Shown here one piece after another: positions 30,592-46,901 of a stretch of DNA of 64,000 nt. The notes beneath the pieces are model-generated. The model was given only the letters and a program-made list of their open reading frames with translations. It did not search any database and was not told the origin of the DNA. Numbering within the stretch: the first letter of the stretch is position 1; every line of letters starts with the position of its first letter. The stretch is taken from the NCBI GenBank assembly GCA_018669005.1, contig JABJAL010000072.1:231877-295876 (forward strand), written 5' to 3'. The translations under genes were made by a program, and so were the position numbers. Origin of the DNA: Nitrospinaceae bacterium (GTDB lineage Bacteria > UBA8248).

Positions 30592-31536
30592 CTATAAAAT
30601 GGGTTTTATTTCTCCAGAAATTTGCATGTCTGCGAGCTTGAGTGTTCGGTAGATGAAATCGTTGAGTGGTGTAGGGATGCCTATTTCTTTGCCCATTCTA
30701 GAGACAGTTCCGCATAGCGCGTCAATTTCGAGGCGGCGGCCCGCTTCAAGATCGTGACAGAGGCTACCTTTGCTGGCCGGATTTTGCTCGTCGAGAAAAC
30801 GAAATCGGTTTTCAACGACATCTTCCGGCAAATCTACTCCCTGCGCCCTCCCAACTTCATATACCTCACACATGATCTCGTGCATCATCTCATGGGTTTC
30901 TGGAGAGGCTACTATTACCCCGAGTGGAGAACGGGTGAGGGCTGTCATGCCGCTGACAGCACAGATGAAGATGAATTTTGTCCAGAGTTCGACTTGAATG
31001 TCATCAGATAACTCTGCGTTGATTCCAGCGGATCTCATGGTAGAAAGAATTTCCTCGCCTCTTTTGCTGGGCCCGCCTCCCATCTCTCCAAAGACGATGC
31101 GTTTAGGCCCTCCTATCTGTTGGATCAGGCCCGGGGCCCCAAGTGCGGTGAAAATATAAGCAGCTCCGCCCATGACACGATTTTGCCCGTAGGTCTTGGC
31201 AAGATGTTCTTCGTTGTCCACGCCATTTTGGAGATTGATGATGACTGTGGTGTCGCCGACCATGGGTGCGATAGCTGGGATGGTCTTTTCGTTTGCGACG
31301 GTTTTCACACAGTAAAGTATGATATCACAAGGCCCAGCCTCGTTGGGATTGTCTGTGGCGAAAACTTTTTCGAGCTTGAAGAATTCTGAATCCACAGACT
31401 CAATACGAAGTCCATAGCTTCGAATGGCTTCGAGGTGTTTTCCTCGAGCGATGAATCGAATATCTTCTCCGGCACGGGATAGCAAGCCCCCAAAATATCC
31501 CCCTACACCGCCGGTTGCCATAATTCCGAATCGCAA
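30592..31536 (-). CDS. panE: 2-dehydropantoate 2-reductase (ketopantoate reductase)
   Basis: N-terminal GxGxxG (IMATGGVGGYFGG) ApbA fold and the C-terminal ApbA_C domain. Confidence 0.65.
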   Translation of the reverse strand: MRFGIMATGGVGGYFGGLLSRAGEDIRFIARGKHLEAIRSYGLRIESVDSEFFKLEKVFATDNPNEAGPCDIILYCVKTVANEKTIPAIAPMVGDTTVIINLQNGVDNEEHLAKTYGQNRVMGGAAYIFTALGAPGLIQQIGGPKRIVFGEMGGGPSKRGEEILSTMRSAGINAELSDDIQVELWTKFIFICAVSGMTALTRSPLGVIVASPETHEMMHEIMCEVYEVGRAQGVDLPEDVVENRFRFLDEQNPASKGSLCHDLEAGRRLEIDALCGTVSRMGKEIGIPTPLNDFIYRTLKLADMQISGEIKPIL

Positions 31537-31611
31537 GGGCTAATCTCCATTAGTTGTTTATGAAGTAAAGAATGTCTTGGGTTTATTTTTTTGCTGGATG
31601 GCGCTATCTAA

Positions 31612-32724
31612 TTAGTTGGTGTCGTTTTTCTCAATTAGATGGGATGTCGTGGCCTCTCTCACTCTCTCTTCCCCGTTACTATTCACGTTAGCATGGGTGT
31701 TAGTTAATCCGTTAGTCTGATGCATAACTGGCTCTTCGGAGACATTATCACCCATCTTCAAATTTGTTTCCCCTTTGATAGGAATCACATCGGAGTCTGG
31801 ACCTTGATTTTCAAAGTCGAGGTTCAGATTAAACTCTTCAGGTTTAGGCAAGTCTGTTAGGCTCTTGAACCCAAAGTGTTCAAGGAATTGTAGTGTGGTG
31901 CCATAAACGATTGGTTTGCCGACTACATCTCGGCGCCCGAGAATTCGGATCATTTTACGTTCCAAAAGGGTATTGATTGTGCCGCCACAATCCACCCTTC
32001 GAATCTCTTCAACTTCTAACTTCGTTATGGGTTGCTTGTATGCAATTATCGCTAGTGTTTCTAGCCCGGCATTTGATACGCGCCATTTTTTCTCTTGCTT
32101 AAAAAAGCGGCGTAACCAATGGGAGAACTCCATTCTGGTACACATGCGGAAGCCTTCTGCCACTTCGGTGATTTGGAGGGTGCGATTCTTGTATTCTTCC
32201 TTTAGCTCTGCGAGGAGTTTGCGTACGACTTTAGCATTTATATTTTCAACACCTCTGAAAACCATTGATATGTCACGGGGGCGTAATGTTTCATGTGTGG
32301 CGAAGAGTAAGGTTTCGATAATCCTCTTCGCCTCATCGAGATTTACGAGTAGGGGTGTATTTGGGGCACTGCCGGTACCGCCAAATTTTTCGACTTTACT
32401 TTCTGAGATATCAATTCTGAACGAAGAGGATTCAACGATTTCGTTGCTGTGTTTTTTTCTTTTTGTTGTGGTTGCGTTGATTTTAAACGTTGGAGATTCG
32501 ATGCTTCTGTCTATTTGTTCTTCTTTTAATTCGAGTGGGACCATCATTTCTTGATTTTCATCTTCTTCTTTGTCGAGTCCAAAGATGGTATTTTCTGATT
32601 CGCCGGAAATCTGGTGTTCTTCAAGTGTGCGGGCGGCTGTTTCTGAAGAAGAAGTGTTGTCACCTTCTAGCTGGAAAACGGATTCCTGTAGTTCTTTGCC
32701 TTTTTCGTATCTTAAATTATTCAT
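31612..32724 (-). CDS. scpB: Segregation and condensation protein B with ~130-aa acidic N-terminal extension
   Basis: Winged-helix ScpB core (IETLLFATHETL...GLETLAIIAYKQPITKLEVEEIRRVD...LLERKMI); lies downstream of scpA with a 4-nt overlap. Confidence 0.6.
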   Translation of the reverse strand: MNNLRYEKGKELQESVFQLEGDNTSSSETAARTLEEHQISGESENTIFGLDKEEDENQEMMVPLELKEEQIDRSIESPTFKINATTTKRKKHSNEIVESSSFRIDISESKVEKFGGTGSAPNTPLLVNLDEAKRIIETLLFATHETLRPRDISMVFRGVENINAKVVRKLLAELKEEYKNRTLQITEVAEGFRMCTRMEFSHWLRRFFKQEKKWRVSNAGLETLAIIAYKQPITKLEVEEIRRVDCGGTINTLLERKMIRILGRRDVVGKPIVYGTTLQFLEHFGFKSLTDLPKPEEFNLNLDFENQGPDSDVIPIKGETNLKMGDNVSEEPVMHQTNGLTNTHANVNSNGEERVREATTSHLIEKNDTN

Positions 32725-33715
32725 CGTCTTTTATCGCCTTGTGGACTCTAATTTCTCCATAAATTTCTGATTGGGTTGCAATAATTAGGCTTAGCCGTAT
32801 TAACTCGAGAATTGCCAGTAATGTAACAACAATAATGAGTCTCTTTGGGCCGTTACCTTTGAATAGATTTTCAAATTCAACTCCTTCAGGCCCGGAATTT
32901 TCAAGCATGTCTAGTACATGAGTCTGGCGGTCAGCCACTTCGAGTTCATCGACTTCAACGAGGTGAATGCCTTCCTCTCCAGCCTCTTCAATCATCTTTT
33001 GGATGGCGCTGATAAGATCAAAAACGGTCACTTCCAAAGGGGGAGGGTTTTCGAAGTCTTCTGGATTTAGAATGATTCCGTCGCCGTTGCCTCCTCTCGG
33101 GAAGATGGCTGACTGTACTTCCTCTGCGTCACGGAAAATTTGGCTTATACCCTTGAATTTTTGATACTCAAGCAATTGACGTTGGAGTTCTAGTCGAAGA
33201 GCTTCAGGGTCCTCTTCGCTTTCCTCCGCACCTCCTTGCTGGGGGAGTAATGTACGACTTTTGATATAAACGAGCCAGGAGGCCATTACGAGATAATCTG
33301 AGGCGATGTTAATGTTCAGGAGCTTCATCATTTCGATGTGTCTTAGGTACTGCTCGGTGATGAATGCGATAGGAATGTCGTATATATCTAATTTATGTTC
33401 GCGGATGAGATGTAACAGAAGTTCTAGTGGCCCTTCAAATACGTCTAGTTTGATGCTGAATTGATCGTTGACGTTTTTTTGTGTGTGAGGGGGCTGAAAT
33501 TCTTCTTTTAATTTATCAAGATTCTGAGGTTCCAAAGCGGTGACTTGGGGAGGTGAGACGATCTCCCAAGAATAGGGTGAACCCGCAGAGCGGTCGCTCC
33601 CTAGATTCAAATCTTTAAGATTCATTGTTTCGATAAGGTCGTTGTTAGGTTCTGAGGCAGATAAACTCTTCTCAGATTCTGACATGTTTGAGTGCTCTGG
33701 CTTAGCTGACGCCAT
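32717..33715 (-). CDS. scpA: Segregation and condensation protein A
   Basis: FEGPLELLLHLIREHKLDIYDIPIAFITEQYL, the kleisin ScpA N-terminal motif. Confidence 0.65.
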   Translation of the reverse strand: MASAKPEHSNMSESEKSLSASEPNNDLIETMNLKDLNLGSDRSAGSPYSWEIVSPPQVTALEPQNLDKLKEEFQPPHTQKNVNDQFSIKLDVFEGPLELLLHLIREHKLDIYDIPIAFITEQYLRHIEMMKLLNINIASDYLVMASWLVYIKSRTLLPQQGGAEESEEDPEALRLELQRQLLEYQKFKGISQIFRDAEEVQSAIFPRGGNGDGIILNPEDFENPPPLEVTVFDLISAIQKMIEEAGEEGIHLVEVDELEVADRQTHVLDMLENSGPEGVEFENLFKGNGPKRLIIVVTLLAILELIRLSLIIATQSEIYGEIRVHKAIKDDE

Positions 33716-33953
33716 GGGGAAGGTCCCCTGTAAGGCGAATGGTGGGCGGAACAGTGATTCTTAATTCATTTAACTATCAGGGTGTAGGTACCCTTCATTT
33801 CCCCCAATACAACTTGGTACCGTAAAAAATACCACAACGCTTGTCAATAGAAAGGATTGCAAGAGGGGCAAAAGTAGATTCGTTTAAAATGTTGGATGTG
33901 TGGTTATAGGGAGTGATAAATTTGATTGTAAAGGAGGGGTTGATTGGGGGGGG

Positions 33954-34322
33954 GTGAATGTGGCGAAAATTATTGAAAGGCATAAGAAAAAAGGCCGACT
34001 GTATGGTCGTGTTTTGGCGCATCAGATTAAGGATGGTGATAGGGTTTACATGAGGTGGTGTTTGCCTTATCTCCATGAAAAAGCCCAGGCCGTTCGGAGC
34101 CAGACAGAGTTATTTGACCTTTCCTCTCGAGGAGGGCTTGATTTTGTGTTTTTAAGTGGCGCTCAGATTGACACCCATAGTGATGTCAATCGGTTGTTTA
34201 TCGGTGATCCAGCGAATCTCGAAGTTCGTTTTCTTGGCGGGGCAGGTGGTTGCCGCTATTTTACCGACAGCGAAGCGGGTGGTTCTCTGTCGGCCTGTTC
34301 ACGATTAAAGAATTTTTCCTGA
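33954..34322 (+). CDS. Hypothetical protein (~122 aa)
   Basis: AGGAGGGG RBS upstream of GTG 33954; no family recognised; low-GC context. Confidence 0.3.
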   Translation: MNVAKIIERHKKKGRLYGRVLAHQIKDGDRVYMRWCLPYLHEKAQAVRSQTELFDLSSRGGLDFVFLSGAQIDTHSDVNRLFIGDPANLEVRFLGGAGGCRYFTDSEAGGSLSACSRLKNFS

Positions 34323-34338
34323 ATGTAGTGAATATATA

Positions 34339-34581
34339 ATGACTTCTGGTCGTGTGGATAGGGTGGTCATTCCAATTTACATCTTCAAAAATGGTAATGA
34401 TGAGCACCTCTGTCCAGAGTTGCTGCACGCAGATGTGACATCTAAAATGGTTCAGAATGCTACGGGATTTCATGTTGAAGTTTTAAATGTAATGCTCGAA
34501 ACGGTTGATCTATCATATGAAGAGCCTTTGGCTTTGGAATCGGTAGATCATTGCGGAGTCCATTTCGGTGAATTTTTTTAG
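34339..34581 (+). CDS. Hypothetical protein (80 aa)
   Basis: ORF directly downstream of the previous gene; no family. Confidence 0.2.
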   Translation: MTSGRVDRVVIPIYIFKNGNDEHLCPELLHADVTSKMVQNATGFHVEVLNVMLETVDLSYEEPLALESVDHCGVHFGEFF

Positions 34582-34604
34582 TCTTATTCCCTCTGGATTA
34601 GTGA

Positions 34605-35537
34605 ATGGTAGAATTTCAGTTTGATGTAGTTGGAGTCGGTCTCAACTCGGTAGATCTCTTGTGCCAAGTTAAGCATTTTCCAGTATTTAACACAAAAGGT
34701 TCTCTGGATGATATAAGCCGTCAGGGTGGCGGACAGGTGGCGACGGCTTTGGCCGCTTTGTCTCGTCTTGAAATGAAAACAGCATTTATTGGTGTTGTAG
34801 GTGATGATGAGAATGGTGTTTTTTCGATATCCTCTCTTAAAGCGGATGGTGTTAATGTCGAGGGCGTGGTTGTGCGGCCTGATTTCGCAACTCAATTTGC
34901 AATCATCATTGTTCAATCCGACGGTGACGATGAAGAAAGAGGAGGACGAACGATTCTATGGCATCGTGAGGTTATTCTTCGGCCTGAGGATGTCAGAGAG
35001 GATATCGTGAAGTCAGCTCGGATGATTCACGTTGACGGCCACTCTCTTGAGGCAGAAATAAAAGTTGCTAAGTGGGCCCAGGAAGAGGGGATTCTTGTTT
35101 CATTTGACGCAGAGCGTGTTGTGCCGGGAGTTGAAAAATTGATTTCGCTAACGGATTATCTGGTTGCGTCCGAGGGTTTTCCGTCGGAATTCTCTGGGAG
35201 TGCAAATGTGAAAGAGGGGCTGAAGAAAATTTGTTCTCTGGGGCCACGTGTAGCTGCCATGACAAAAGGTCCCCGGGGTGTCGTCGCTTTTGATGGAGAG
35301 CGATTTTACAATTCACCTGGATTTCCAATTAATGTGGTTGATACCACTGGGGCTGGTGATGTGTTTCATGCTGGGTTTATCTATGGGGTTTTACAAGGAT
35401 TTGAACTGTCTCGAACTCTGCGGTTTGCTAATGCTCTTGCGGCTCTGAGTTGCAGAGAACTAGGTGGTCGTGCTGGTCTTTGTTGTCTTGAGGAAGTGGA
35501 TAGCTTTATTGCGAAATTTCCTGATTTGGAGGCTTAA
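34605..35537 (+). CDS. PfkB-family carbohydrate kinase (ribokinase-like)
   Basis: N-terminal GG motif (VVGVGLNSVDL), C-terminal DTTGAGD anion-hole motif. Confidence 0.65.
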   Translation: MVEFQFDVVGVGLNSVDLLCQVKHFPVFNTKGSLDDISRQGGGQVATALAALSRLEMKTAFIGVVGDDENGVFSISSLKADGVNVEGVVVRPDFATQFAIIIVQSDGDDEERGGRTILWHREVILRPEDVREDIVKSARMIHVDGHSLEAEIKVAKWAQEEGILVSFDAERVVPGVEKLISLTDYLVASEGFPSEFSGSANVKEGLKKICSLGPRVAAMTKGPRGVVAFDGERFYNSPGFPINVVDTTGAGDVFHAGFIYGVLQGFELSRTLRFANALAALSCRELGGRAGLCCLEEVDSFIAKFPDLEA

Positions 35538-36427
35538 TGAGTAGGTTTCTTAATGATATAGAGATGGTCTGGCTTCGCAAGATTTTTTTCGTATTTTTAC
35601 TTACATTGCTGGGTGCCGGAGCAGGTGCCTGTAATTCGGGTTTGCCAGAAAATTCAGTTTCTGGTGCCATTCTATTGTCTCCTGGGCTTCCTGCTAAGGC
35701 CGCTAGAACGGGGACGCTTTTTATTGTGCTTGCTCCGGTTGGCGGCGGTCCTCCGCTTGCTGTTCAGCGACTGGTCCGAGTGAAGTTTCCTTATAAATAC
35801 ATCCTCACGAAAGACGATCTGATGTTTAAGGGCGGGCCCTTCACTGGACAGGTCAAAGTACGCGCCCGGCTCGATTCGGATGGAGTTGTCGGGCGGCTAG
35901 TAAGGGGTGACTACGAAGGAAGAAATGAAACACCTGTTTCGATTGGTGCTAGAGGAGTTGACGTTGTTATCAATAAGGCTGGAACTGCACCCCCTCCTCG
36001 CAAGGTGTCAAAAAAGACGGTGCCCATGCGACCGATTGCTCCGATGTCGTCCGCTGGCAAACAATCTTCCGCTTCTAGTTTGGGCGATGGTCCCACGATA
36101 AGTGGGACCATCAAAATTGCGCCTTCCCTAGTTCAAAAGGCCGAGGGAATTCCCGTTCTGTTCATCATTGCCCGCACGGAGCGACCCGGCCCGCCGCTTG
36201 CGGTGGTGAAGGTGGCACGTCCGCGCTTTCCGTTCCCCTTCACCATCTCCGGGCGCAACGTCATGATGCAGGGTCTACGCTTTGAGGGCAGGGTACGCAT
36301 CACGGCCCGCTTAGATGCCGATGGCAACGCCGGTGCGCCCAAGCCAGGCGACATGGAAGGGAAGACTCCCTCCTTGGTCACGGTGGGCGACAGCAAGGTT
36401 GTCATCACGGTGGACAAGGCCTACTAG
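35537..36427 (+). CDS. Hypothetical lipoprotein with an internal tandem domain duplication
   Basis: Signal peptide plus lipobox (LLGAGAGAC); two ~90-aa homologous halves (GTLFIVLAPVGGGPPLAV...VRARLDSDG vs GIPVLFIIARTERPGPPLAV...ITARLDADG). Confidence 0.5.
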   Translation: MSRFLNDIEMVWLRKIFFVFLLTLLGAGAGACNSGLPENSVSGAILLSPGLPAKAARTGTLFIVLAPVGGGPPLAVQRLVRVKFPYKYILTKDDLMFKGGPFTGQVKVRARLDSDGVVGRLVRGDYEGRNETPVSIGARGVDVVINKAGTAPPPRKVSKKTVPMRPIAPMSSAGKQSSASSLGDGPTISGTIKIAPSLVQKAEGIPVLFIIARTERPGPPLAVVKVARPRFPFPFTISGRNVMMQGLRFEGRVRITARLDADGNAGAPKPGDMEGKTPSLVTVGDSKVVITVDKAY

Positions 36428-37522: not shown

Positions 37523-38002
37523 ATGGACACCATGACAATTTTCGGCCTGCAATTCGCTTTAAGCCTCCTCGCCTGGGGCGCGGCGGCCCGGTGGCTCGCA
37601 GTCTCTCATCTTGAAAAATTATCCGCTCATGAGGCGCTCTCGTGGCTCATTCTGCCGCACACTTTCCGGCACTTAGGATTAGTCTTCCTCGTCCCCGGCG
37701 TCGTGGCGCGGCCGCTCCCCGAAGCATTTGCCAATCCCGCCGCCTATGGCGATCTCCTGGCGGGCCTCCTCGCGCTCGCCGCCTTTGCCGCCCTCCGCAG
37801 CGGCAAATCCTTCGCGCGCCCCCTCGCCTGGCTTTTCAACATCGTCGGGACAATGGACCTGCTCTATGCCGTCACCATTGGCACCCTCAACAACGCCGCC
37901 CCCGCCATGGGCGCCACATGGTACATCCCCACTTTTGTCGTGCCCTTGCTGCTCATCACGCATGGAATGATTTTTGTCAGGTTGGTGAGGGGGGAGGGGT
38001 GA
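37523..38002 (+). CDS. Hypothetical 4-5 TM membrane protein
   Basis: AAAGGAGA RBS; hydrophobic profile; no family assigned. Confidence 0.45.
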   Translation: MDTMTIFGLQFALSLLAWGAAARWLAVSHLEKLSAHEALSWLILPHTFRHLGLVFLVPGVVARPLPEAFANPAAYGDLLAGLLALAAFAALRSGKSFARPLAWLFNIVGTMDLLYAVTIGTLNNAAPAMGATWYIPTFVVPLLLITHGMIFVRLVRGEG

Positions 38003-38193
38003 TATGGTCGACTAATGGACTGGATAATTTCGTGCAAATCGTGAATACTTTCTATGTATTCACTCACTAAATTTTCCGCCCGATATGGCCGATATGACAT
38101 CAAAAGAGTGATTTGCGCTGAAGATGGATTTTCGCTATAATTTCGTCTATCAGTATTTCCTTTAATGTCGAGTAGTGTCAGGAGAGTAAATTC

Positions 38194-39441
38194 GTGGGGC
38201 GTCCAATCGGAATTGATCTTTTTGCTGGGGCAGGAGGCTTAAGCCTAGGTTTCGAGCAGGCGGGGTTTAAAATTGCCGCTGCTGTCGATATTGACCCAAT
38301 TCATTGTGCAGCACATGAGTACAATTTCCCCAATTGTAAAACTATTTGCAAAGATGTCGCTGAATTGACGGGAGAAGAAATTCGAAAAATTTCTGGTGTC
38401 AAAGAAAAAAAAATAGATGTAGTTTTCGGAGGAGCGCCTTGTCAGGGTTTTTCGCTGATTGGTAAAAGAGCATTAAACGACCCGCGTAATCGTCTCGTTA
38501 ATCATTTTGTTCGATTGGTACTTGAGCTAGCCCCTTCTTATTTTCTATTTGAGAATGTCAAAGGATTAACAATCGGCAAGCATCGCCAATTTCTCGAAGA
38601 AATAATTTCAACGTTCGAAAAAAATGGTTATTCGGTTGAGGGTAATTATCGTGTGTTAAATGCATCTAATTACGGAGTGCCGCAGAAGAGAGAACGGTTA
38701 TTTCTATTCGGGTGTAGAAAAAATCTTAAAATTCCTATATATCCAAAAAAATTGAGCGAAATTTCAATCTCCGATGCGTTGGCAGATTTGCCAGAAGTTG
38801 AAAAATTTACAGAACTGCTTGATAGGGATTGGGTGGAGACAATTCTTGGAAGTCCATCAAAATATGCTGAAAAATTACGAGAAGCTGAATTTGCTTCTTG
38901 TAATTATGGATACAGTCGAAAATATAATCCCAATCTACTAACATCAAGCGCAAGAACAACTCATACGCCACTTTCTCGAAAACGATTTGCCGAAACGCCA
39001 CACGGAAAAACAGAACCAGTTAGTAGATTTTTCAAATTAGATCCGCAGGGTGTTTGTAATACCTTGCGGGCTGGGACGGCAAGTGATCGGGGAGCTTTCA
39101 CTTCTCCAAGACCTATCCATCCCTTTACTCCTCGATGTATTACAGTTCGCGAGGCAGCCCGAATACACAGCTACCCTGATTGGTTTCGATTTCATGTCAC
39201 CAAGTGGCATGGGTTTAGGCAGATTGGAAATTCGGTCCCACCTCTTTTGGCCCAAGCGGTCGCTATGGAAATTTTGAGGGCTCTTGAAAAAAAACCTTCA
39301 AAGCCCAAAAAAATTTTAAGGTTAGGCGATTCATTGTTGCTTAATTTGTCAATGTCGCAAGCGGCTTATTATTATGGCGTGTCTCCAAATGTGATTCCAA
39401 AACGTACCAGATCGGCCCGTCCAAAGGTGATTTGTGCCTAA
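38194..39441 (+). CDS. DNA (cytosine-5)-methyltransferase
   Basis: Motif I (IDLFAGAGGLSLGF), motif IV PC (GGAPCQGFS), motif VI ENV (ENVKGL), motif VIII and a C-terminal target-recognition domain. GTG start with AGGAGAG RBS; GC ~40%. Confidence 0.8.
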   Translation: MGRPIGIDLFAGAGGLSLGFEQAGFKIAAAVDIDPIHCAAHEYNFPNCKTICKDVAELTGEEIRKISGVKEKKIDVVFGGAPCQGFSLIGKRALNDPRNRLVNHFVRLVLELAPSYFLFENVKGLTIGKHRQFLEEIISTFEKNGYSVEGNYRVLNASNYGVPQKRERLFLFGCRKNLKIPIYPKKLSEISISDALADLPEVEKFTELLDRDWVETILGSPSKYAEKLREAEFASCNYGYSRKYNPNLLTSSARTTHTPLSRKRFAETPHGKTEPVSRFFKLDPQGVCNTLRAGTASDRGAFTSPRPIHPFTPRCITVREAARIHSYPDWFRFHVTKWHGFRQIGNSVPPLLAQAVAMEILRALEKKPSKPKKILRLGDSLLLNLSMSQAAYYYGVSPNVIPKRTRSARPKVICA

Positions 39442-40234
39442 AAAGCGAACTGGTCTTTATGATGTGATAATAGAGCAAATTTTCAAGAATCATTTCACGG
39501 CGGGTATTTCTTCATTCGATTTTGATAGGGACGAAATTGAAAAAGTTGCAGAGAAAATTGAAGCAAACCTTCCAAAAAATGTAGGCGATGTGGTTTATTC
39601 CTTTCGTTACCGTAGGGCACTTCCTAAATCTATTCAAGATACTGCATCGAATGATAATGAATGGGTCATCGAAGGAGCAGATAGAGCCAAATATACATTT
39701 AAATTGGTGAAAATTAATCGAATTGTACCCAACCAAAATTTAATTGCTATAAAAATTCCAGATGCAACTCCAGAAATAATTTCATCTTATGCGCTGTCAG
39801 ATGAGCAAGCCCTGTTGGCAAAGGTCAGATACAATAGATTAGTAGATATATTTTTGGGGCTAACAACATATTCTTTGCAGAATCATCTGAGAACTACTGT
39901 TAAAAGAGTTCAAATCGAGATAGACGAAATTTATGTCGGCATAGATCGAGAAGGATGCCACTACATAATACCTATTCAAGCGAAGGGAGGAAAAGATCAA
40001 CTTTCAGTGGTTCAAACAAAACAGGATATATCTTGTTGTACCGATAAGTTTCCAAATTTAATTTGCCGAGCACTATCAAGTCAATTTATGACAGAAAATC
40101 TTATTGCTATTTTCGAATTGACTGTGCAGGATGATCAGATAAGAATTGTTGATGAAAAACATTATCGATTAGTCCCTTCGGAGCAAATATCTTCAGAAGA
40201 TATGAAAGCATACAGGTCACACACTTCAGGGTAA
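39434..40234 (+). CDS. Hypothetical protein, candidate type II restriction endonuclease partner of the C5-MTase
   Basis: Overlaps the MTase by 8 nt, shares its low GC, and has a possible PD-(D/E)xK-like element (VGIDREG...IPIQAKGG). No family otherwise recognised. Confidence 0.35.
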   Translation: MPKKRTGLYDVIIEQIFKNHFTAGISSFDFDRDEIEKVAEKIEANLPKNVGDVVYSFRYRRALPKSIQDTASNDNEWVIEGADRAKYTFKLVKINRIVPNQNLIAIKIPDATPEIISSYALSDEQALLAKVRYNRLVDIFLGLTTYSLQNHLRTTVKRVQIEIDEIYVGIDREGCHYIIPIQAKGGKDQLSVVQTKQDISCCTDKFPNLICRALSSQFMTENLIAIFELTVQDDQIRIVDEKHYRLVPSEQISSEDMKAYRSHTSG

Positions 40235-40260
40235 ATATTTTTTCAACCAAGACCCCCATC

Positions 40261-40330
40261 TCACTTCCCCCATATGACCAAGAACACCCTAACAACCGAA
40301 ATCATCTCCCCCCAGACAACGCGGGGCGAC
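40261..40330 (-). pseudogene. 3' remnant of a fourth EamA/DMT transporter paralog
   Basis: Positions 40261-40330 are ~75% identical to the 3' end of the DMT gene at 41315 (ttacttcccccatacgacgagaaacacc...cagacgacgcggg), but the frame is broken. Lies at the right edge of the low-GC R-M island. Confidence 0.4.
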
Positions 40331-40396
40331 TAAGAATTCATGAAGAATCAATAATTTTGAAAGAGCGCAGGACTCATTTAAAAGCCCGCCCCGTCT

Positions 40397-41215
40397 TCAG
40401 GCTTGGGCCAGAACGAAATGGCGCAGTTTCTCGATGGCGTCTTTTGAGGCCTCTGTGTCCGGCTCGGTGAGGATGAACATGTGGGGCTGGCCCTCGTATT
40501 TGTGGAGGTCGATCGAGCCGCCGGCTGCGCGATAGCGCTCGGCGAAGATATCGGCGCGGGTATGCTCGACATTGGCGTCCTCGGTGCCCTGGATGATTAT
40601 CATTGGCGGCATGTGGGTCGCCTCGCCGCGATCAAGGACCATAAAAGGGTTGCCGGTTTCCATGTCCTCATCCGTGGGAAAATAGGCCTTGGTGGCGGCT
40701 ATCAGCCGCTCATTGCCCACTTTTTGTGCCATCTGGTAGCGCGCCAGCGGATCGAGTATCGACCAGCACGCGATAAAAAAAGCAATGCTGGCATCCACAT
40801 CAGCCAGGGAGGGGTCTGGTGCCATGTAGCGCGCATCATCAGGCGTGAGCGCCACCAGCCCCATCTGATTCCCGCCGCTTGATGCGCCCATCGCGCCGAT
40901 GATGCTTGGCGCCACCCCGAGTGCGCTGGCGTTCGCTTTGAACCAGCGCACGCCGTAATTGATGTCAATCACCGGTGCCGGGAATTGCGTCTCGCCCGAT
41001 AAGCGAAAATCCAGCGCGAACACGCCGATGCCGTTTTTTGCGAAATCCTGATGGATGACCTCGTTGCTAAGACGGCTGCCTCTGCCCCAGGCCCCGCCAT
41101 GCGCATCTATCACGAATGGGGCTGGTCCCTCGGGATGAGGCCGATACAGCCGGGCTTTCAACTCGGTGCCCTCGATAGTCCGGTAGGGAATGTCCTCGAC
41201 GACCGGGTTTGTCAC
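40397..41215 (-). CDS. Alpha/beta hydrolase (esterase/lipase, hydrolase fold-3-like)
   Basis: HGGAW oxyanion motif and a GxSxG-like nucleophile elbow (GAMGASSGG). Confidence 0.6.
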   Translation of the reverse strand: MTNPVVEDIPYRTIEGTELKARLYRPHPEGPAPFVIDAHGGAWGRGSRLSNEVIHQDFAKNGIGVFALDFRLSGETQFPAPVIDINYGVRWFKANASALGVAPSIIGAMGASSGGNQMGLVALTPDDARYMAPDPSLADVDASIAFFIACWSILDPLARYQMAQKVGNERLIAATKAYFPTDEDMETGNPFMVLDRGEATHMPPMIIIQGTEDANVEHTRADIFAERYRAAGGSIDLHKYEGQPHMFILTEPDTEASKDAIEKLRHFVLAQA

Positions 41216-41314
41216 GTTATTTCCTTTTCATGGCATTTGGTTGTTTTCATGGGTAATCAATTACAGGCTAATGGGCCGAGCAGGCGCTTGCAATGAGGAA
41301 GATATCGGCCCCAA

Positions 41315-42193
41315 TTACTTCCCCCATACGACGAGAAACACCCCGGCAACAGATAGCAGCCCGCCCCAGACGACGCGGGAGGTGATCTGTTCGAGTTGTC
41401 GGTAGAAAAGCCAGGAGGTGAAAATCATCAAGAGGACCGAGATGCGGGTGACGGGCACCACCTGCACGAGATCCCCGTGCTGGACGGCAGTCCAGAAGAA
41501 CAGGGCGGCCAGGGCGTTGAACACCGCCCCCACCACAATAAAGAGAACGGCCTGCCGCCCAAAGGATTTGGGTATTCCCTCGCCGGTAAAGGGCATGATG
41601 GCGATCATCGTCACGACCGAAAAAGTGTTGGAAATGCTCATGCCGAGCGTGGCCGAATCGATCCAGCCATATCCGTATTTGCGCAGCAGGTGGGAGAGCC
41701 CTTGTAGAAATGCCGCCACCACCGGGATGAGGTAGTAAGACATGGGGATTTTCTTGAGCTCAATTTCTCCTTTGTTGACCAGGAGAATTGAGCCAATCAT
41801 GATCGCCGCCGTTCCCGCGCCGATGGCCATGTTCAGATTCTCCCCCAGAAGGGCGATGGCCAGCCCCGTTGACCAGATGAGGCTTGTTTGAAGAATGATC
41901 GCCGTCCGGGCGAGGCCAAGCTCTTTCATTGATAAAAATTGAAGGTAGCGCCCGCCCACACCGTTTATGATTCCGATGCCCACGAACCAGGCAACCCCCT
42001 GAAGGGGCCAATGCTCCACCTGGCCTGAATAGAAATAATAACCCCAGATGAGGACCAGCGAGATTGAGCCCGAGATCAGAGCTGTTGTGTTTGCGCCGAA
42101 ATGGAGCAGTACGCTTCGGTAGAGTGTTCGCGCTATCGAGATGTTGACCGCGGATAAAAGTGCCAACAGGCTGGGGTGTATTGAATCGAGCAA
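41315..42193 (-). CDS. EamA/DMT superfamily transporter, tandem paralog 1 (292 aa)
   Basis: 10-TM DMT profile; ~70% identical to the next two genes. Confidence 0.6.
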   Translation of the reverse strand: MLDSIHPSLLALLSAVNISIARTLYRSVLLHFGANTTALISGSISLVLIWGYYFYSGQVEHWPLQGVAWFVGIGIINGVGGRYLQFLSMKELGLARTAIILQTSLIWSTGLAIALLGENLNMAIGAGTAAIMIGSILLVNKGEIELKKIPMSYYLIPVVAAFLQGLSHLLRKYGYGWIDSATLGMSISNTFSVVTMIAIMPFTGEGIPKSFGRQAVLFIVVGAVFNALAALFFWTAVQHGDLVQVVPVTRISVLLMIFTSWLFYRQLEQITSRVVWGGLLSVAGVFLVVWGK

Positions 42194-42291
42194 ATCGCCA
42201 CCAGAGAGGATAGAAACTAAAAAACTATTATTGCATGGAACGAAAAATAGAGCGATGAGGGGAGTCTGAATTTCTTAATTGGCGGGCGGCT

Positions 42292-43170
42292 TTATTTTCC
42301 CCAAACGATGAGGAACACCCCGGCAACGGAGAGCACCCCCCCGTAAACGACGCGGGCCGTGACGCTTTCTTGTTTTCGGAAAAAAAGCCATGAAGTGAAA
42401 ATCATCAAGAGGACCGAGATTCTGGTGATGGGGACGACCTGCACGAGTTCTCCCCGCCTGACAGCCGTCCAGAAAACTATCGCGGACATAAAGTTGAACA
42501 GCGCCCCTCCCACGATGCAGAGTATGGGCCGCCGCTCCAAGGTTTTTGGGATGCGCTCGTTCGTGAACGGCATGATGGCGAGCATCGTCATGACCGAAAC
42601 GGTGTTGGAGATACTCAGGCCGAAGGTGGCCGAATCAATCCATGCGTAACCGTATTTACGTAGCAGGTGAGATAGCCCGAGAAAAAACGCCGCCGCCAGC
42701 GGGATAAGATAGTAGGTGAGGGGAATCTTCTTAGGCTCCGAGCCTCCCTTTTTGACCAGGAGAATGGAGCCGATCATGATTGCGGCTGTTCCCGCGCCGA
42801 TAGCCAGGCTCAAGCGCTCGCCCAAAAGAATGATGGCCAGCCCCGTGGACCAGATGATGCTTGTCTGCATCAGGATCGATGTCCGGGCAAGGCCGATTTC
42901 TTTTATCGAATAAAAGCTGAGATAGCGACCGCCCAGACCACCCAATATCCCGACAACCATGAACAAGGCAATCCCCTGAAGGGGGTAGTTGTCCACCGTT
43001 CCCGTGTACAAATAAAAGCTCCATACGCAGACAAGCGTAATCGAGCCCGAGGCCAGAGCCGTCGTGCCGGCACCTAGGCGGAGCATCGCGCCCCGGTAGA
43101 GGGTCCGCGCCATAGAGATGTTGAACGCGGAGATCAGCGCCAACATGTTGGGATGAATGGTATCGAGCAA
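42292..43170 (-). CDS. EamA/DMT superfamily transporter, tandem paralog 2 (292 aa)
   Basis: Same length and conserved blocks as paralogs 1 and 3; a ~99-bp conserved spacer separates the copies. Confidence 0.6.
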   Translation of the reverse strand: MLDTIHPNMLALISAFNISMARTLYRGAMLRLGAGTTALASGSITLVCVWSFYLYTGTVDNYPLQGIALFMVVGILGGLGGRYLSFYSIKEIGLARTSILMQTSIIWSTGLAIILLGERLSLAIGAGTAAIMIGSILLVKKGGSEPKKIPLTYYLIPLAAAFFLGLSHLLRKYGYAWIDSATFGLSISNTVSVMTMLAIMPFTNERIPKTLERRPILCIVGGALFNFMSAIVFWTAVRRGELVQVVPITRISVLLMIFTSWLFFRKQESVTARVVYGGVLSVAGVFLIVWGK

Positions 43171-43269
43171 ATCGCCACCAGAGAGGAGAGAAACTAAAGA
43201 TCTATTATTGCATGTAACGAAAAACAGATCGATGAAGACTGTCAGGGTTTCTAGAAATGGCGGGCGGTT

Positions 43270-44148
43270 TTATTTTCCCCAAACGACGAGAAACACCCCG
43301 GCAACGGAGAGTACCCCCCCGTAAACGACGCGGGCGGTGACTCTTTCTTGTTTTCGAAAAAACAGCCAGGAAGTGAAAATCATCATGAGGACCGAGATCC
43401 GGGTGATGGGAACGACCTGCACGATTTCTCCTCGTTGTACGGCTGTCCAAAAGAACAGGGCGGACAAGGCGTTGAACACCGCCCCCGCCACAATGAAGAA
43501 AATAGGGCGCCACCCCCAAGTTTTGGGGATGCCCTCATTCGTGAAAGGCAAGATGGCGATCATCGTCATGACCGAAACGGTGTTGGAGATGCTCAGGCCG
43601 AAGGTGGCCGAATCAATCCAGTTGTAGCCGTATTTGCGGAGCAGGTGAGATAGGCCCAGCAAAAAAGCCGCCACCACGGGAATGAAGTAGTAGGAGAAAG
43701 GTACTTCTTTAAGCTCTGAGCCCCCTTTGTAGACCAGGAGAATGGAGCCAATCATGATTGCGGCTGTTCCCGCGCCGATAGTCAGGTTCACCTGCTCGCC
43801 CAGGAGGACGATGGCCAGCCCCGTGGACCAGATAATGCTCGTTTGCATCAGAACCGAGGTTCGGGCGAGGCCGAGCTCTTTCATCGAGAAAAAATTAAGG
43901 TAGCGCCCGCCCACGCCTCCCAGCATTCCGACGATGACGAACCAGGCAATCCCTTGAAGGGGCCAGCTGTCCACCGTGCCGGTATAAAAATAATAGCTCC
44001 AGATAAGGCCCAGCGAAATTATCCCTGAGGCCAGTGCCGTCGTGCCGGCACCGAGGCGAAGCAGGACGCTTCGATAGAACGTTCGCGCTATCGCGATGTT
44101 GAGCGCGGCTAACAGTGCCAACGCTGTGGGATGAAATGAATCGAGCAA
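43270..44148 (-). CDS. EamA/DMT superfamily transporter, tandem paralog 3 (292 aa)
   Basis: As above. Confidence 0.6.
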   Translation of the reverse strand: MLDSFHPTALALLAALNIAIARTFYRSVLLRLGAGTTALASGIISLGLIWSYYFYTGTVDSWPLQGIAWFVIVGMLGGVGGRYLNFFSMKELGLARTSVLMQTSIIWSTGLAIVLLGEQVNLTIGAGTAAIMIGSILLVYKGGSELKEVPFSYYFIPVVAAFLLGLSHLLRKYGYNWIDSATFGLSISNTVSVMTMIAILPFTNEGIPKTWGWRPIFFIVAGAVFNALSALFFWTAVQRGEIVQVVPITRISVLMMIFTSWLFFRKQERVTARVVYGGVLSVAGVFLVVWGK

Positions 44149-44401: not shown

Positions 44402-45415
44402 GTGATTATCGATCCCCACGCACACATTTCGCCCGAAAGTTTTATTGATGACGTTCGCAAAAAACGCTTCGGCAAGTCAGTAACGATCAGAAAGGGCAAG
44501 CCCTGGGAGTTTCTCGTCACGCGCACGAAGATCCTCGGCAAGGAGCGGGTCCACGTAAACCCGCTGCCCAAAGAAACCTACGATGTGAGTCTTCGCCTGA
44601 AGGGCATGAAGAAGCAGAACGTCGATATGCAGATTCTCTCGGTCGTGCCGCCGATGACCTACTACGCGCTCGACAAGGGGCTGAACAAAGAGCTCTCGGC
44701 CTCGCTCAACGAATCCTTGCTTAAAATCGTGGACGAGAATCCGGATAAATTCCGCTGCATGGCGCAGATTCCTCTCCAGGATCCCAAGGCGGCGGCCAAG
44801 GAGCTAGAGCGCGCGGTCAAAAAGGGCCACCTCGGCTGCCAGATTGGCTCGAACGTCGCGGGAACCAACCTTGATGACAAAAAGCTCGACCCCGTATGGC
44901 GTATGGCGCAAAAACTCGATGTGCCCATTTTCATCCATCCCACAGACGTGATGGGCGTGAATGATCGCCTCAAGGACTATTACTTGCGCAACTTCATCGG
45001 CAACCCGCTCGACACCACCATCGCGGCGGCCTGTCTCATCTTCGGCGGGGTGTTTGACCGCTTCCCGAAGGTTAAATTTCTGCTCTCCCACGTGGGTGGC
45101 TTCACCCCCTGGATCAGAGGCCGCTGGCAGCACGGCTACGGCGAGCGCCAGGAGCCCAAGGTCAACAAGGCCAAGGCACCCGAGAACTACTTCAAAAAGT
45201 TCTACTACGACACGATCATTCACAATGCCGATTCATTTGAGTTTGCCGTTAAGTCGCTGGGCGTGAACCGCATCCTCTACGGGACGGATTACCCGTTCGA
45301 CATGGGCAACCTGAGCCGGGCCGAGAAGATTCCGGGCCTCTCGCGTTTTTCGAAAAAAGATCAGCAGAAAATGCTCGTGGGCAACGTGAAGAAGCTCTAT
45401 AAACTAAAAGTGTGA
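44402..45415 (+). CDS. Amidohydrolase-2 family (PF04909-like; ACMSD/LigW-type metal-dependent hydrolase/decarboxylase)
   Basis: IDPHAHI N-terminal His pair, HVGG and GTDYP metal-site motifs. GTG start at 44402 with AAGGAGAG RBS; the ORF-track N-terminal extension is rejected. Confidence 0.65.
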   Translation: MIIDPHAHISPESFIDDVRKKRFGKSVTIRKGKPWEFLVTRTKILGKERVHVNPLPKETYDVSLRLKGMKKQNVDMQILSVVPPMTYYALDKGLNKELSASLNESLLKIVDENPDKFRCMAQIPLQDPKAAAKELERAVKKGHLGCQIGSNVAGTNLDDKKLDPVWRMAQKLDVPIFIHPTDVMGVNDRLKDYYLRNFIGNPLDTTIAAACLIFGGVFDRFPKVKFLLSHVGGFTPWIRGRWQHGYGERQEPKVNKAKAPENYFKKFYYDTIIHNADSFEFAVKSLGVNRILYGTDYPFDMGNLSRAEKIPGLSRFSKKDQQKMLVGNVKKLYKLKV

Positions 45416-45452
45416 ATTTTAAGACCAAAACGAACATTAAAAGGAGAATTAG

Positions 45453-46460
45453 ATGGCCATTGATCCACATACACATATTCTGCCGATGGGGTTTCTGGAC
45501 GACCTGCGCAAGGGCCGCCTCGGCAAGGCTGTAAGCATCGAGAAGGATGGCGATAATGAGTTCATGGCGTTCGAGGGCACCATCTTCGGCAAGGAGCGCC
45601 GCTGGCATAACAATCTCAAGCCGCCTTATTACGATGTGGACATCCGCCTCGGGGCGATGAAGAACATGGGGGTCGAGCGCCAGGTGCTCTCGGTCTCGCC
45701 CTTCATGACGCTCTATGCCCTCGACGCCGGGTTGAATAAAGAGCTTTCGGCCTCGATCAACGACGGTTTGACCGAGTTGGCAAACAAGTACCCCGATCAG
45801 CTCTCCTGCATGGCGCAGGTGCCGCTCCAGGATCCCGATGCCGCGGTGGCCGAGCTCGACCGGGCTGTGAAAAATGGCCACATCGGCGTGCAGATCGCAG
45901 CCAACGTCGCGGGGGAGAATCTCGACGCGCCAGAGCTCGATGTTTTCTGGGCCAAAGCGGTCGCGCTCGATATTCCGATTTTCATCCATCCCCAAGGCCA
46001 GGCGGCGGCCCCTGAGCGGCTCGGCGATTACTACATGAGAAACTTCATCGGCAACCCGCTCGACACGACCATTGCTGTCTCGTGCCTAATCTTCGGCGGG
46101 GTGCTCGACCGTTTCCCGGACATTAAATTCTATCTCTCCCACGTGGGTGGCTTCGTTCCCTGGATCAGAGGCCGCTGGCAGCACGGCTACGGCGAGCGCG
46201 ATGAGCCCAAGGTAAACGGCGCCAAAGATCCCGAACAGTATTTCGGCAAATTTTACTACGACACGATTATTCATAATGCCGATGCCTTCGTGTATGCCGT
46301 TGAAACGCTGGGAGCCGACCGCATTCTCTACGGGACGGACTATCCGGCCGATATGGGCTACCACCAGCCGGCCAAGGATATTCCTGGCCTCTCGCGGTTG
46401 TCAGCCGAGGATCAGGAGAAAATCCTCATCGGCAACGCGAAGAAGCTCTATAAGCTCTAG
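45453..46460 (+). CDS. Amidohydrolase-2 family protein, tandem paralog
   Basis: ~65% identical to the preceding gene (IDPHTHI, HVGGF.PWIRGRWQHGYGER, GTDYP). Confidence 0.65.
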   Translation: MAIDPHTHILPMGFLDDLRKGRLGKAVSIEKDGDNEFMAFEGTIFGKERRWHNNLKPPYYDVDIRLGAMKNMGVERQVLSVSPFMTLYALDAGLNKELSASINDGLTELANKYPDQLSCMAQVPLQDPDAAVAELDRAVKNGHIGVQIAANVAGENLDAPELDVFWAKAVALDIPIFIHPQGQAAAPERLGDYYMRNFIGNPLDTTIAVSCLIFGGVLDRFPDIKFYLSHVGGFVPWIRGRWQHGYGERDEPKVNGAKDPEQYFGKFYYDTIIHNADAFVYAVETLGADRILYGTDYPADMGYHQPAKDIPGLSRLSAEDQEKILIGNAKKLYKL

Positions 46461-46571
46461 CTCGCAATTTGGCGAAATAGCCCCGGTGGACAGCCGGGCC
46501 GGGGCTATGCAAGATCGGAGAATCAACGGAATTTTTTGAACTGCCATTTTCTCTTTTTGGGGGGAAGTCGC

Positions 46572-46856
46572 ATGGAGCCCAGGTACAAGGTAGGCGATGA
46601 GGTAGTTGTGCAGAACCGCTTTCCGCCCGGCCATATCCGCACCCCTGAGTTTGTCCGGGGCAAGGCGGGCCGCATCGCTCGTTATTTTGGCAAATTTCGT
46701 AATCCCGAAAAGCTGGCCTATGGCAAAGATGGTCTGCCGCTCTGCCCGCTCTATTGGGTCGAGTTCATGGTTAACGATGTGTGGGCCAATAAGCCAGGTA
46801 AGCAGCAGGACAAGATAGTGATTGAAATTTACGAACACTGGCTCGACCCGGCCTAG
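46572..46856 (+). CDS. Nitrile hydratase beta-subunit C-terminal-half homolog (SCNase alpha-like), ~94 aa
   Basis: YKVGDEVVV...GHIRTPEFVRGKAGRI...LYWVEF...DVW...IVIEIYEHWLD matches the C-terminal domain of NHase beta. GGGGGGAAG RBS. Confidence 0.5.
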   Translation: MEPRYKVGDEVVVQNRFPPGHIRTPEFVRGKAGRIARYFGKFRNPEKLAYGKDGLPLCPLYWVEFMVNDVWANKPGKQQDKIVIEIYEHWLDPA

Positions 46857-46901
46857 CGGGTTAGGGCCTTGGCGAAAACCGAAACCGATTCGAGGTGAGC
46901 C

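What the first reader, a model, noticed from the sequence alone, without database searches (positions are those of the whole stretch)
38003..40330. Low-GC type II R-M island (C5-MTase plus overlapping unknown ORF) inserted into a DMT transporter paralog
GC drops from ~60% to ~40% between ~38.0 and 40.25 kb. The island encodes a complete C5 cytosine methyltransferase (motifs I, IV PCQ, VI ENV) and a 266-aa ORF overlapping it by 8 nt. Immediately at the right boundary (40261-40330) is a frame-broken fragment ~75% identical to the 3' end of the DMT genes at 41315/42292/43270. So acquisition of the R-M cassette apparently deleted the body of a fourth transporter copy.
Basis: seen in the sequence. 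Interest (0 to 1): 0.65.

Follow-up and report, generated by a model that had tools for sequence, protein, structure and literature searches.

The report
Acquired two-gene restriction-modification cassette
A 2.26-kb low-GC insert in a marine Nitrospinaceae genome is an ordinary, widely travelled two-gene restriction-modification cassette, and it sits between genes, so it did not destroy a transporter gene.

Summary
Window 38003-40260 is the strongest compositional outlier in the 64 kb (GC 0.39 against 0.55; GC3 0.27-0.31 against 0.71-0.76 in the flanking genes). It encodes an intact C5 cytosine methyltransferase (38194-39441) and a 266-aa ORF (39434-40234) that overlaps it by 8 nt.

The "unknown" ORF is the restriction endonuclease. 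It matches a PADLOC Type II REase model end to end (E 9e-122). It has more than 8000 relatives, and every relative locus examined has the same M-then-R layout, including small Klebsiella, Salmonella and E. coli plasmids. Its model folds as a winged helix plus a PD-(D/E)XK nuclease.

The cassette has no integrase, tRNA, C protein or flanking repeats. It is fixed in all ~20 near-identical population contigs and absent from the syntenic slot of the only relative found.

The claim that it deleted a fourth DMT copy is not supported. The relic (40261-40326) is the last 22 codons plus stop of a minus-strand DMT. Its stop faces the island, and the missing body would lie where a separately mobile hydrolase cassette now sits.

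Recognition sequence is unresolved; AplI-like CTGCAG is only a lead. This is an ordinary finding: a new member of a known kind.

The parts
38003..38193 (+). Low-GC non-coding leader of the cassette. It holds a perfect TATAAT at 38136-38141 and an AGGAGA Shine-Dalgarno sequence 9 nt before the GTG start of M. It contains no regulator (C-protein) ORF.
   Evidence: Sequence read. ORFs of 20 aa or more in this stretch give nothing credible. It has no homology to the leaders of other cassettes. The promoter is a consensus match only, not evidence of function.
38194..39441 (+). C5 cytosine DNA methyltransferase of 415 aa. Motifs: I 38215-38238, IV (PCQ) 38428-38454, VI (ENV) 38545-38565, VIII 38683-38703, IX 39148-39180, X 39226-39243. 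The target-recognition domain lies between motifs VIII and IX.
   Evidence: PF00145 2.8e-71. TIGR00675 3.2e-60. PADLOC MTase_II PDLC03326 3.1e-173, residues 1-397. Closest solved chain is 3G7U, 1e-79. 61% identical without gaps to the MTase of an E. coli ColE1-type plasmid. Motif coordinates.
39434..40234 (+). Type II restriction endonuclease of 266 aa. GTG start, 8-nt overlap with M, AAGGTG 7 nt upstream. It has an N-terminal winged-helix domain and a C-terminal PD-(D/E)XK-type nuclease domain. Family-invariant residues include E114, E162, D164, E165, Q182 and K184.
40235..40260 (.). 26-nt AT-rich tail between the REase stop codon and the stop codon of the DMT relic. It is the right-hand junction of the island.
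   Evidence: Sequence read. GC profile.
40261..40326 (-). Relic of a fourth DMT/EamA paralogue: the stop codon plus the last 22 codons, in frame. It is not part of the island but marks its right border.
   Evidence: BLAST against 41317-41379, 77.8% over 63 nt, E 4e-8. Alignment. Translation. It matches DMT1 at 50/66 nt and 14/22 aa, while DMT1 and DMT2 match at 53/66 nt.
40363..41308 (-). Alpha/beta-hydrolase (acetyl-esterase-like) cassette. The CDS is 40397-41215, with its own upstream leader and about 34 nt of downstream sequence. It occupies the place where the body of the fourth DMT copy would be.
   Evidence: PF20434 and PF07859. 82.7% nt identity to L022 over 40363-41308, where it follows an MFS_1 gene, and 81.9% to L020 in yet another context. 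Its leader aligns with the L020/L022 leaders and not with the inter-DMT spacers.
41315..44148 (-). Three tandem EamA/DMT transporter genes (41315-42193, 42292-43170, 43270-44148), which are the paralogues of the relic.
   Evidence: PF00892. About 79% nt identity between copies.
37523..38002 (+). Left-flanking host gene, a 159-aa membrane protein. It is intact, and its stop codon at 38000-38002 is the left border of the island.
   Evidence: Its orthologue in the syntenic Nitrospinota MAG L024 (66% aa identity) ends at the same length.

Best explanation
Window 38003-40260 is a bare two-gene Type II restriction-modification operon acquired by horizontal transfer into a marine Nitrospinaceae lineage.

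What is shown. The first gene encodes a C5 cytosine methyltransferase with all catalytic motifs. The second encodes a 266-aa endonuclease of a very widespread family that is already modelled from REBASE-derived data. Its model has a winged-helix domain followed by a PD-(D/E)XK nuclease core.

What is inferred about how it works. One promoter in the 191-nt leader probably drives both genes. The 8-nt overlap, the GTG start and the AAGGTG sequence inside the end of M suggest that R is translationally coupled to M. R would then be made only where M is made, and at a lower level, and no C-protein regulator is needed. The methyltransferase would protect the host's copies of a short recognition sequence by 5-methylation, and the endonuclease would cut unmethylated incoming DNA at the same sequence. 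Because loss of the cassette could be lethal to the cell, it may also stabilise itself.

Where it sits. The cassette lies between two convergent stop codons: that of the 159-aa gene and that of a DMT relic. This position is a variable slot between two conserved gene blocks. The truncation of the fourth DMT copy is a separate, older event linked to the hydrolase cassette, not to the R-M genes.

What is unresolved. The recognition sequence is not determined. The best lead is an AplI-like CTGCAG specificity.
For: Composition: the island is the strongest GC and tetranucleotide outlier in the window, and its GC3 is 0.27-0.31 against 0.71-0.76 in the flanks.

Identity of the genes: PF00145 2.8e-71, and PADLOC MTase_II 3.1e-173 and REase_II 8.9e-122, the latter full length.

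Conserved cassette in unrelated hosts: the M-then-R order recurs in every relative locus examined. The 8-nt overlap is seen in Citrobacter, E. coli, Klebsiella and Salmonella ColE1-type plasmids, a Paracoccus plasmid (with vsr), Abyssibacter and a further MAG. In Vibrio the two genes are separated by 9 nt. Nucleotide homology to these copies is confined to 38203-40177.

Nuclease: residues E162, D164, E165, Q182 and K184 are invariant in the family. The model has pLDDT 81.7. Its best structural hits are mainly PD-(D/E)XK nucleases such as NucS, Cas4, Hjc, RecU, RecE and BpuSI, with winged-helix domains matching the N-terminal part.

Population and relatives: the cassette is present with no differences across the island in about 20 contigs from different samples and MAGs. 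It is absent from the syntenic slot of L024, which carries DUF2846, YCII and MBL-fold genes there instead.

Geometry of the relic. Independent mobility of the hydrolase cassette.
Against: No activity, methylation or expression data exist. The operon structure, the promoter and the translational coupling are read from the sequence only.

The only syntenic comparator (L024) is distant, at about 65-79% nt identity. No exact empty site exists, and the order of events (R-M insertion, DMT truncation, hydrolase arrival) is inferred.

Low GC alone is weak evidence here, because the core scpAB-pfkB region is also low-GC.

Specificity is unresolved. CTGCAG is rare in the window (2 observed against 6.3-13.5 expected) but is not depleted in other carriers.
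Confidence: 0.85

Rival explanations
1. One reading: the R-M cassette landed inside a fourth DMT paralogue and its arrival deleted the body of that gene.
For: A real DMT 3'-end relic lies directly against the right border of the island. R-M insertions are known, from established literature, to be accompanied by rearrangements.
Against: The relic is the 3' end of a minus-strand gene, and its stop codon faces the island. The missing body would lie on the far side, which is now occupied by the high-GC hydrolase cassette. That cassette is found with the same leader in unrelated contexts. The relic is about as diverged from DMT1 (50/66 nt) as DMT1 is from DMT2 and DMT3 (53-54/66 nt). The island's GC3, by contrast, is completely unameliorated, which suggests two events of different age.
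Confidence: 0.05
2. The cassette is no longer a working R-M system. Either the endonuclease is inactive and the methyltransferase acts alone as an epigenetic or orphan enzyme, or both genes are silent passengers.
For: No functional data are available. Orphan C5 MTases derived from R-M systems are common (established knowledge). The host window already shows broad avoidance of palindromes, so it carries or has carried other systems.
Against: Both ORFs are full length against their family models. All family-invariant residues are present in the window's REase. The coupled start site is conserved. The cassette is unchanged in every contig of the population, although that population is nearly clonal, so this is weak evidence of selection.
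Confidence: 0.1
3. The low-GC segment is native compositional heterogeneity of this genome rather than a foreign acquisition.
For: A second low-GC block at 31-36 kb carries core, syntenic genes (scpA, scpB, pfkB).
Against: The same two-gene cassette occurs on enterobacterial and Paracoccus plasmids and in Vibrio, Abyssibacter and cyanobacterial genomes. It is missing from the syntenic slot of L024. Its GC3 of 0.27-0.31 is well below even the native low-GC genes, which are at 0.36-0.43.
Confidence: 0.02

Closest known systems
The Type II R-M family represented by PADLOC models MTase_II PDLC03326 and REase_II PDLC03404, as carried on small ColE1-type plasmids of Klebsiella, Salmonella, E. coli and Citrobacter (for example NZ_CP115735, CP098949, OW849020) and on Paracoccus seriniphilus p12374
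   Same: Same two proteins: REase 57-58% and MTase 61% identical over the full length. Same gene order and same 8-nt M/R overlap. No C protein.
   Different: Here the cassette is chromosomal, in a Nitrospinaceae MAG, with no plasmid or mobilisation genes nearby. Its leader and tail sequences are unrelated to those of the other copies. No member with an experimentally defined recognition site could be linked to the family with these tools.
AplI R-M system of Arthrospira platensis NIES-39 (CTGCAG, with a C5 methyltransferase; Shiraishi and Tabuse 2013, as cited in PMC5741684)
   Same: It is a C5-MTase plus REase pair. The C-terminal 245 aa (target-recognition domain plus motifs IX-X) of the Klebsiella plasmid MTase of this family carries the annotation 'Modification methylase AplI'. 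The family is common in cyanobacteria. CTGCAG is rare in the window and absent from the island.
   Different: The link rests on a pipeline label only. The AplI sequences could not be retrieved, so neither MTase nor REase homology was tested. The adjacent REase in the same records is labelled 'hypothetical protein'. CTGCAG is not depleted in other carriers.
Sau96I / PspPI-type GGNCC systems (from memory: MTase of about 416-430 aa, REase of about 261 aa, M upstream of R)
   Same: Protein sizes and gene order resemble this cassette. GGNCC is mildly under-represented in all six carrier sequences tested (aggregate O/E 0.82).
   Different: The depletion is weak and is shared with CCWGG and GATC. The annotation label points to AplI rather than to a GGNCC methylase.
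E. coli O157:H7 prophage CP-933R cytosine methyltransferase (PDB 3G7U)
   Same: It is the closest solved relative of the MTase. It aligns over residues 7-359 at E 1e-79, including the second half of the variable region.
   Different: It is 376 aa, lacks the roughly 50-aa C-terminal tail, is prophage-borne, and its specificity is not known to me.

Membership tests
Orthodox Type II (IIP-like) restriction-modification system | Separate, adjacent genes for a DNA methyltransferase and an endonuclease | tested here: met
   38194-39441 and 39434-40234 are on the same strand and overlap by 8 nt. Both match Type II models.
Orthodox Type II (IIP-like) restriction-modification system | Methyltransferase with the full catalytic motif set of its class (C5: motifs I, IV PCQ, VI ENV, VIII, IX, X) | tested here: met
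   PF00145 matches residues 7-361 at 2.8e-71. Motifs are located.
Orthodox Type II (IIP-like) restriction-modification system | Endonuclease with a recognised nuclease fold and catalytic residues | tested here: inconclusive
Orthodox Type II (IIP-like) restriction-modification system | Both enzymes act on the same short recognition sequence; cleavage is blocked by the methylation | not testable with these tools
   This needs a methylome or biochemistry. Site-avoidance statistics were inconclusive.
PADLOC REase_II PDLC03404 / MTase_II PDLC03326 family | Full-length, high-scoring match to both profile HMMs | tested here: met
   REase: 403 bits, residues 6-261 on positions 3-259 of 260. MTase: 575 bits, residues 1-397 on positions 2-409 of 412.
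AplI-type (CTGCAG) system | Homology of the MTase target-recognition domain and of the REase to M.AplI and R.AplI | not testable with these tools
   Only an annotation label on a 245-aa C-terminal fragment of the Klebsiella plasmid MTase is available. The AplI paper is not held, and the scans of genome contigs were already spent.
AplI-type (CTGCAG) system | Avoidance of CTGCAG in carrier genomes | tested here: inconclusive
   Window: 2 observed against 6.3-13.5 expected. Vibrio 7 against 5-8, Abyssibacter 18 against 10-16, L039 12 against 5-11.
C-protein-controlled R-M systems (PvuII, Esp1396I type) | A small HTH controller gene with C-boxes upstream of R | tested here: not met
   There is no ORF of 20 aa or more with any support in 38003-38193 or between M and R. 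M and R overlap.
Integrase-borne genomic island or transposon | An integrase or transposase gene, a tRNA target, and flanking direct or inverted repeats | tested here: not met
   The window has no tRNA. No boundary repeats stand out from chance-length matches. The segment contains only M and R.

The most novel reading that the evidence does not exclude
The endonuclease belongs to a very large family: more than 8000 clusters at 90% identity and 1493 representatives at 50% identity. The family has no Pfam or NCBIfam model and no solved structure. Its active site appears to be an unusual D...Q-x-K variant behind a winged-helix reader domain. Its recognition sequence may be undescribed, or the family may turn out to be the unrecognised endonuclease family behind a known specificity such as CTGCAG. 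The cassette also moves as a naked two-gene unit into intergenic slots with no recognisable mobility machinery.
Probability: 0.12. Interest if true: 0.35.

Novelty: new member of a known kind. Interest (0 to 1): 0.15.

Why it matters
For genome annotation, the result turns a 'hypothetical protein' or 'endonuclease' into the restriction partner of a C5 methyltransferase in an uncultured, ecologically important nitrite-oxidising lineage. It also predicts a 5mC motif that should be visible in methylome data from that population.

It gives a clean example of a naked R-M operon fixed in a marine population with no amelioration of its base composition. It also corrects the inference that the cassette destroyed a transporter gene.

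Beyond that it is routine. Type II R-M cassettes of this family are already in defence-system databases and on well-known plasmids.

Tried and rejected
1. Looking for an empty site. Exact-protein look-ups of both flanking genes returned only near-clonal contigs (99.96-100% identical), and all carry the island. Scans of genome and metagenome contigs with the 159-aa protein gave one useful syntenic relative, L024. The other hits were non-syntenic or too short.

2. Using hydrolase homologues as anchors. The 79-80% identical copies sit in different contexts. They gave no empty site, but they showed that the hydrolase is an independent module.

3. Identifying the recognition sequence.
- Pfam, NCBIfam and PDB sequence searches of the REase found nothing.
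- The phage collection and complete E. coli genomes hold no copy.
- Literature searches for GGNCC, AplI and PstI isoschizomers did not connect a characterised enzyme to this family, and the AplI paper is not held.
- Palindrome-avoidance statistics over six carrier sequences were inconclusive.
- Remote family members of about 240-250 aa also lack Pfam domains.

4. Boundary repeats, tRNA and terminators gave nothing beyond chance.

5. A fragment of a divergent gene in the leader (the minus-strand ORF 37864-38103) has no homologue in other cassettes by tblastx, so it was rejected.

6. I considered whether the 63-66-nt repeats flanking the hydrolase are a recent target duplication. I rejected this as the main reading because the relic is as diverged from DMT1 as the full paralogues are from each other.
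Full report
**Observation**

The compositional anomaly is real. In 300-nt windows, GC falls from 0.59-0.63 just left of 38050 to 0.35-0.48 across 38050-40300, and returns to 0.56-0.61 from 40300. The segment 38003-40260 has GC 0.391 against 0.552 for the rest of the window. A 2250-nt window at 38001-40250 is the strongest tetranucleotide outlier (z = 4.5). Third-codon-position GC is 0.31 and 0.27 for the two island genes, against 0.76, 0.72 and 0.71 for the 159-aa gene, the hydrolase and DMT1.

The low GC is not unique in the window. The 31-36 kb stretch, which carries apbA, scpB, scpA and pfkB, has GC 0.42-0.47 and z of about 3-3.5, although those genes are core and syntenic with a relative. 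Low GC alone would therefore not prove foreign origin.

**The two genes**

The ORF at 38194-39441 (415 aa, GTG start, AGGAGA 9 nt upstream) is a complete C5 cytosine methyltransferase:
- PF00145 at 2.8e-71 over residues 7-361.
- TIGR00675 at 3.2e-60.
- PADLOC MTase_II PDLC03326 at 3.1e-173.
- Motifs I, IV (PCQ), VI (ENV), VIII, IX and X are all present.
- Its closest solved relative is 3G7U, a prophage-encoded E. coli O157 methyltransferase (1e-79).

The ORF at 39434-40234 (266 aa) overlaps it by 8 nt. It has no Pfam, NCBIfam or PDB sequence match. It does match the PADLOC Type II REase model PDLC03404 from end to end (E 8.9e-122). The 'unknown ORF' is therefore the restriction endonuclease of a family already captured in defence-system databases.

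**The endonuclease family**

- A search of the 5.8-billion-protein collection hit the ceiling of 8000 scored relatives. The 120 listed are 261-276 aa and 61-68% identical, and come from cyanobacteria, Vibrio, Abyssibacter, Verrucomicrobia, Betaproteobacteria and many metagenomes. The 100% match is named 'endonuclease [Nitrospinaceae bacterium]'.
- A full HMM scan of 1.84 billion representatives gave 1493 clusters at E of 1e-3 or better, including methylase-endonuclease fusion proteins of 612-735 aa.
- An alignment of 55 members has invariant E114, E162, D164, E165, Q182, K184 and many others. All of these are present in the window's protein.
- An AlphaFold2 model (pLDDT 81.7, pTM 0.75) has an N-terminal helix/strand module and a C-terminal alpha/beta core.

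I infer, but have not shown, that D164 and Q182-x-K184 form a variant PD-(D/E)XK site.

**A conserved, mobile cassette**

The same M-then-R pair occurs in several unrelated hosts. With the 8-nt overlap it is found on:
- 4-6-kb ColE1-type mobilisable plasmids of Klebsiella, Salmonella, E. coli and Citrobacter.
- A Paracoccus plasmid, where it sits next to a vsr gene.
- The Abyssibacter chromosome and a further MAG, where it is a naked pair between housekeeping genes.

In Vibrio fluvialis the two genes are 9 nt apart and lie beside a filamentous prophage. A REase match is also present on S. meliloti pSymA.

The window's MTase is 61% identical to the E. coli plasmid enzyme over its whole length with a single gap. 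Nucleotide homology between the window and these cassettes is restricted to 38203-40177, that is, to the coding sequence only.

The island has no integrase, no tRNA, no boundary repeats above chance and no controller-protein ORF.

**Population and relatives**

About 20 contigs from different samples and MAGs carry the flanking genes. They are 99.96-100% identical to the window, and all carry the cassette, with no differences across the island. The population is almost clonal, so there is no polymorphic empty site.

The only syntenic relative found is L024, a Nitrospinota MAG at 65-79% nt identity. It shares the blocks apbA-scpB-scpA-pfkB-cycH-like-marR-159-aa gene on one side and the twin amidohydrolases on the other. 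Between them it carries DUF2846, YCII and metallo-beta-lactamase-fold genes (2.5 kb). The window has the R-M cassette, the relic, the hydrolase and three DMT genes there (6.4 kb).

This position is therefore a variable slot, and the R-M cassette is not ancestral to it. L024 is too distant to give exact junctions.

The similarity is real. Positions 40263-40325 match 41317-41379 at 77.8% (E 4e-8), and the alignment shows the relic running into a TGA stop. Read on the minus strand, 40261-40326 gives SPRVVWGEMISVVRVFLVIWGK*. That compares with TSRVVWGGLLSVAGVFLVVWGK* in DMT1: 14/22 residues and 50/66 nt are identical. DMT1 matches DMT2 and DMT3 at 53-54/66 nt.

Three points follow:
- The relic is in frame, so it is not frame-broken.
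- It is the 3' end of a minus-strand gene, so its stop codon faces the island and the missing body would lie to the right.
- That space is filled by the hydrolase cassette (40363-41308).

The leader of the hydrolase cassette aligns with the leaders of 82-83% identical hydrolase copies found after an MFS gene (L022) and in another context (L020). It does not align with the spacers between the DMT genes.

The simplest reading is an old four-copy DMT array whose last copy was largely replaced by the hydrolase module. The R-M cassette later landed in the intergenic gap between the convergent stops at 38002 and 40261. The order of these events is inferred. The claim that the R-M cassette deleted the transporter body is contradicted by the geometry.

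**Mechanism (inferred)**

A leader promoter (perfect TATAAT at 38136-38141; a consensus match only) probably transcribes M and R together. The GTG start of R lies inside the last codons of M, with AAGGTG 7 nt upstream. The overlap is conserved in most relatives examined, which points to translational coupling. That would tie endonuclease synthesis to methylase synthesis, and keep it below methylase levels, without a controller protein. The system would then act as a classical Type II barrier and, through post-segregational killing, as a self-stabilising element.

**Specificity**

This remains open.
- In two Klebsiella plasmid records the MTase gene crosses the record origin. Only its C-terminal 245 aa (variable region plus motifs IX-X) is annotated, and it is labelled 'Modification methylase AplI'.
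- AplI of Arthrospira platensis recognises CTGCAG (PMC5741684).
- CTGCAG occurs twice in the 61.7 kb outside the island, against 6.3-13.5 expected, and not at all in the island.
- It is not depleted in other carriers. Many other palindromes are also depleted in the window.
- GGNCC is mildly low in all six carriers, at 0.82 overall. This fits a size-based recollection of Sau96I/PspPI-type systems, but that remains untested.

I rate CTGCAG at roughly one in three.

**Verdict**

This is a routine, horizontally acquired Type II R-M cassette of a known family, newly seen in Nitrospinaceae. The R-M interpretation is supported and sharpened, because the unknown ORF is the REase. The gene-disruption story is not supported.

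Noticed in passing
window 31000-36000: A second compositional outlier (GC 0.42-0.47, tetranucleotide z about 3-3.5) covers the core genes apbA, scpB, scpA and pfkB, which are syntenic with the relative L024. Low GC in this genome is therefore not by itself a mark of foreign DNA.
   Followed up: partly
window 41315-44148: Three tandem EamA/DMT transporter paralogues of 292 aa each are about 79% identical at the nucleotide level, with spacers of 98-99 nt. In the last 66 nt, DMT2 and DMT3 share 63/66 positions while DMT1 shares 53-54/66 with them. This suggests successive duplications or gene conversion.
   Followed up: partly
window 40363-41308; L020 743-1625; L022 2319-3265: The alpha/beta-hydrolase gene travels with its own roughly 95-nt leader and about 34 nt of trailer. 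It occurs at 82-83% nt identity in unrelated gene contexts (after an MFS_1 gene in L022). It behaves like a small mobile module with no visible mobility gene.
   Followed up: partly
proteins P0244, P0245, P0247, P0279, P0316: The endonuclease family includes proteins of 612-735 aa in which the REase is the C-terminal part. P0244 has a C5 methylase domain at the N-terminus. These may be natural M-R fusions or frameshift artefacts at the 8-nt overlap.
   Followed up: partly
window, whole (outside 38003-40260): Several palindromic hexamers are strongly under-represented against a maximal-order Markov expectation: ACGCGT 0 against 4.9, CGATCG 6 against 23.7, CTCGAG 10 against 30.9, GTCGAC 4 against 13.3, GCCGGC 15 against 37.6. 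This hints at a history of other restriction systems in this lineage.
   Followed up: no
window 30104-30580 (minus strand): A stand-alone EVE-domain protein (PF01878, 1.2e-56) lies 7.5 kb from the C5 methyltransferase. It is present in all population contigs. No link to the R-M cassette was tested.
   Followed up: no
L024 10001-10480: The orthologue of the 159-aa membrane protein in the relative has an in-frame stop at codon 95. It may be a pseudogene, a sequencing error or a recoded codon.
   Followed up: no
L024 7549-9899: The relative carries two extra genes (metallo-beta-lactamase fold and NmrA-like) between the marR-like gene and the 159-aa gene. The window lacks them, so there is a second variable point in the same neighbourhood.
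   Followed up: no
L036 1-8400 (Vibrio fluvialis GCA_028992115.1): The Vibrio copy of the R-M cassette lies directly beside a filamentous prophage (Phage_GPA replication protein, coat gp8, Zot, secretin). That prophage carries a second, weaker C5-methylase-like gene.
   Followed up: no
window 44402-47627: Twin Amidohydro_2 genes are followed by a nitrile hydratase alpha gene (PF02979); gene calls on identical population contigs also show a nitrile hydratase beta gene between them. This metabolic cluster lies next to the DMT/hydrolase genes, and the amidohydrolase pair is conserved in L024.
   Followed up: no
window 50327-53845 (minus strand): A 1172-aa protein with DUF7948, SBBP beta-propeller repeats and an HYR domain sits in another locally low-GC stretch (0.47-0.49).
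   Followed up: no
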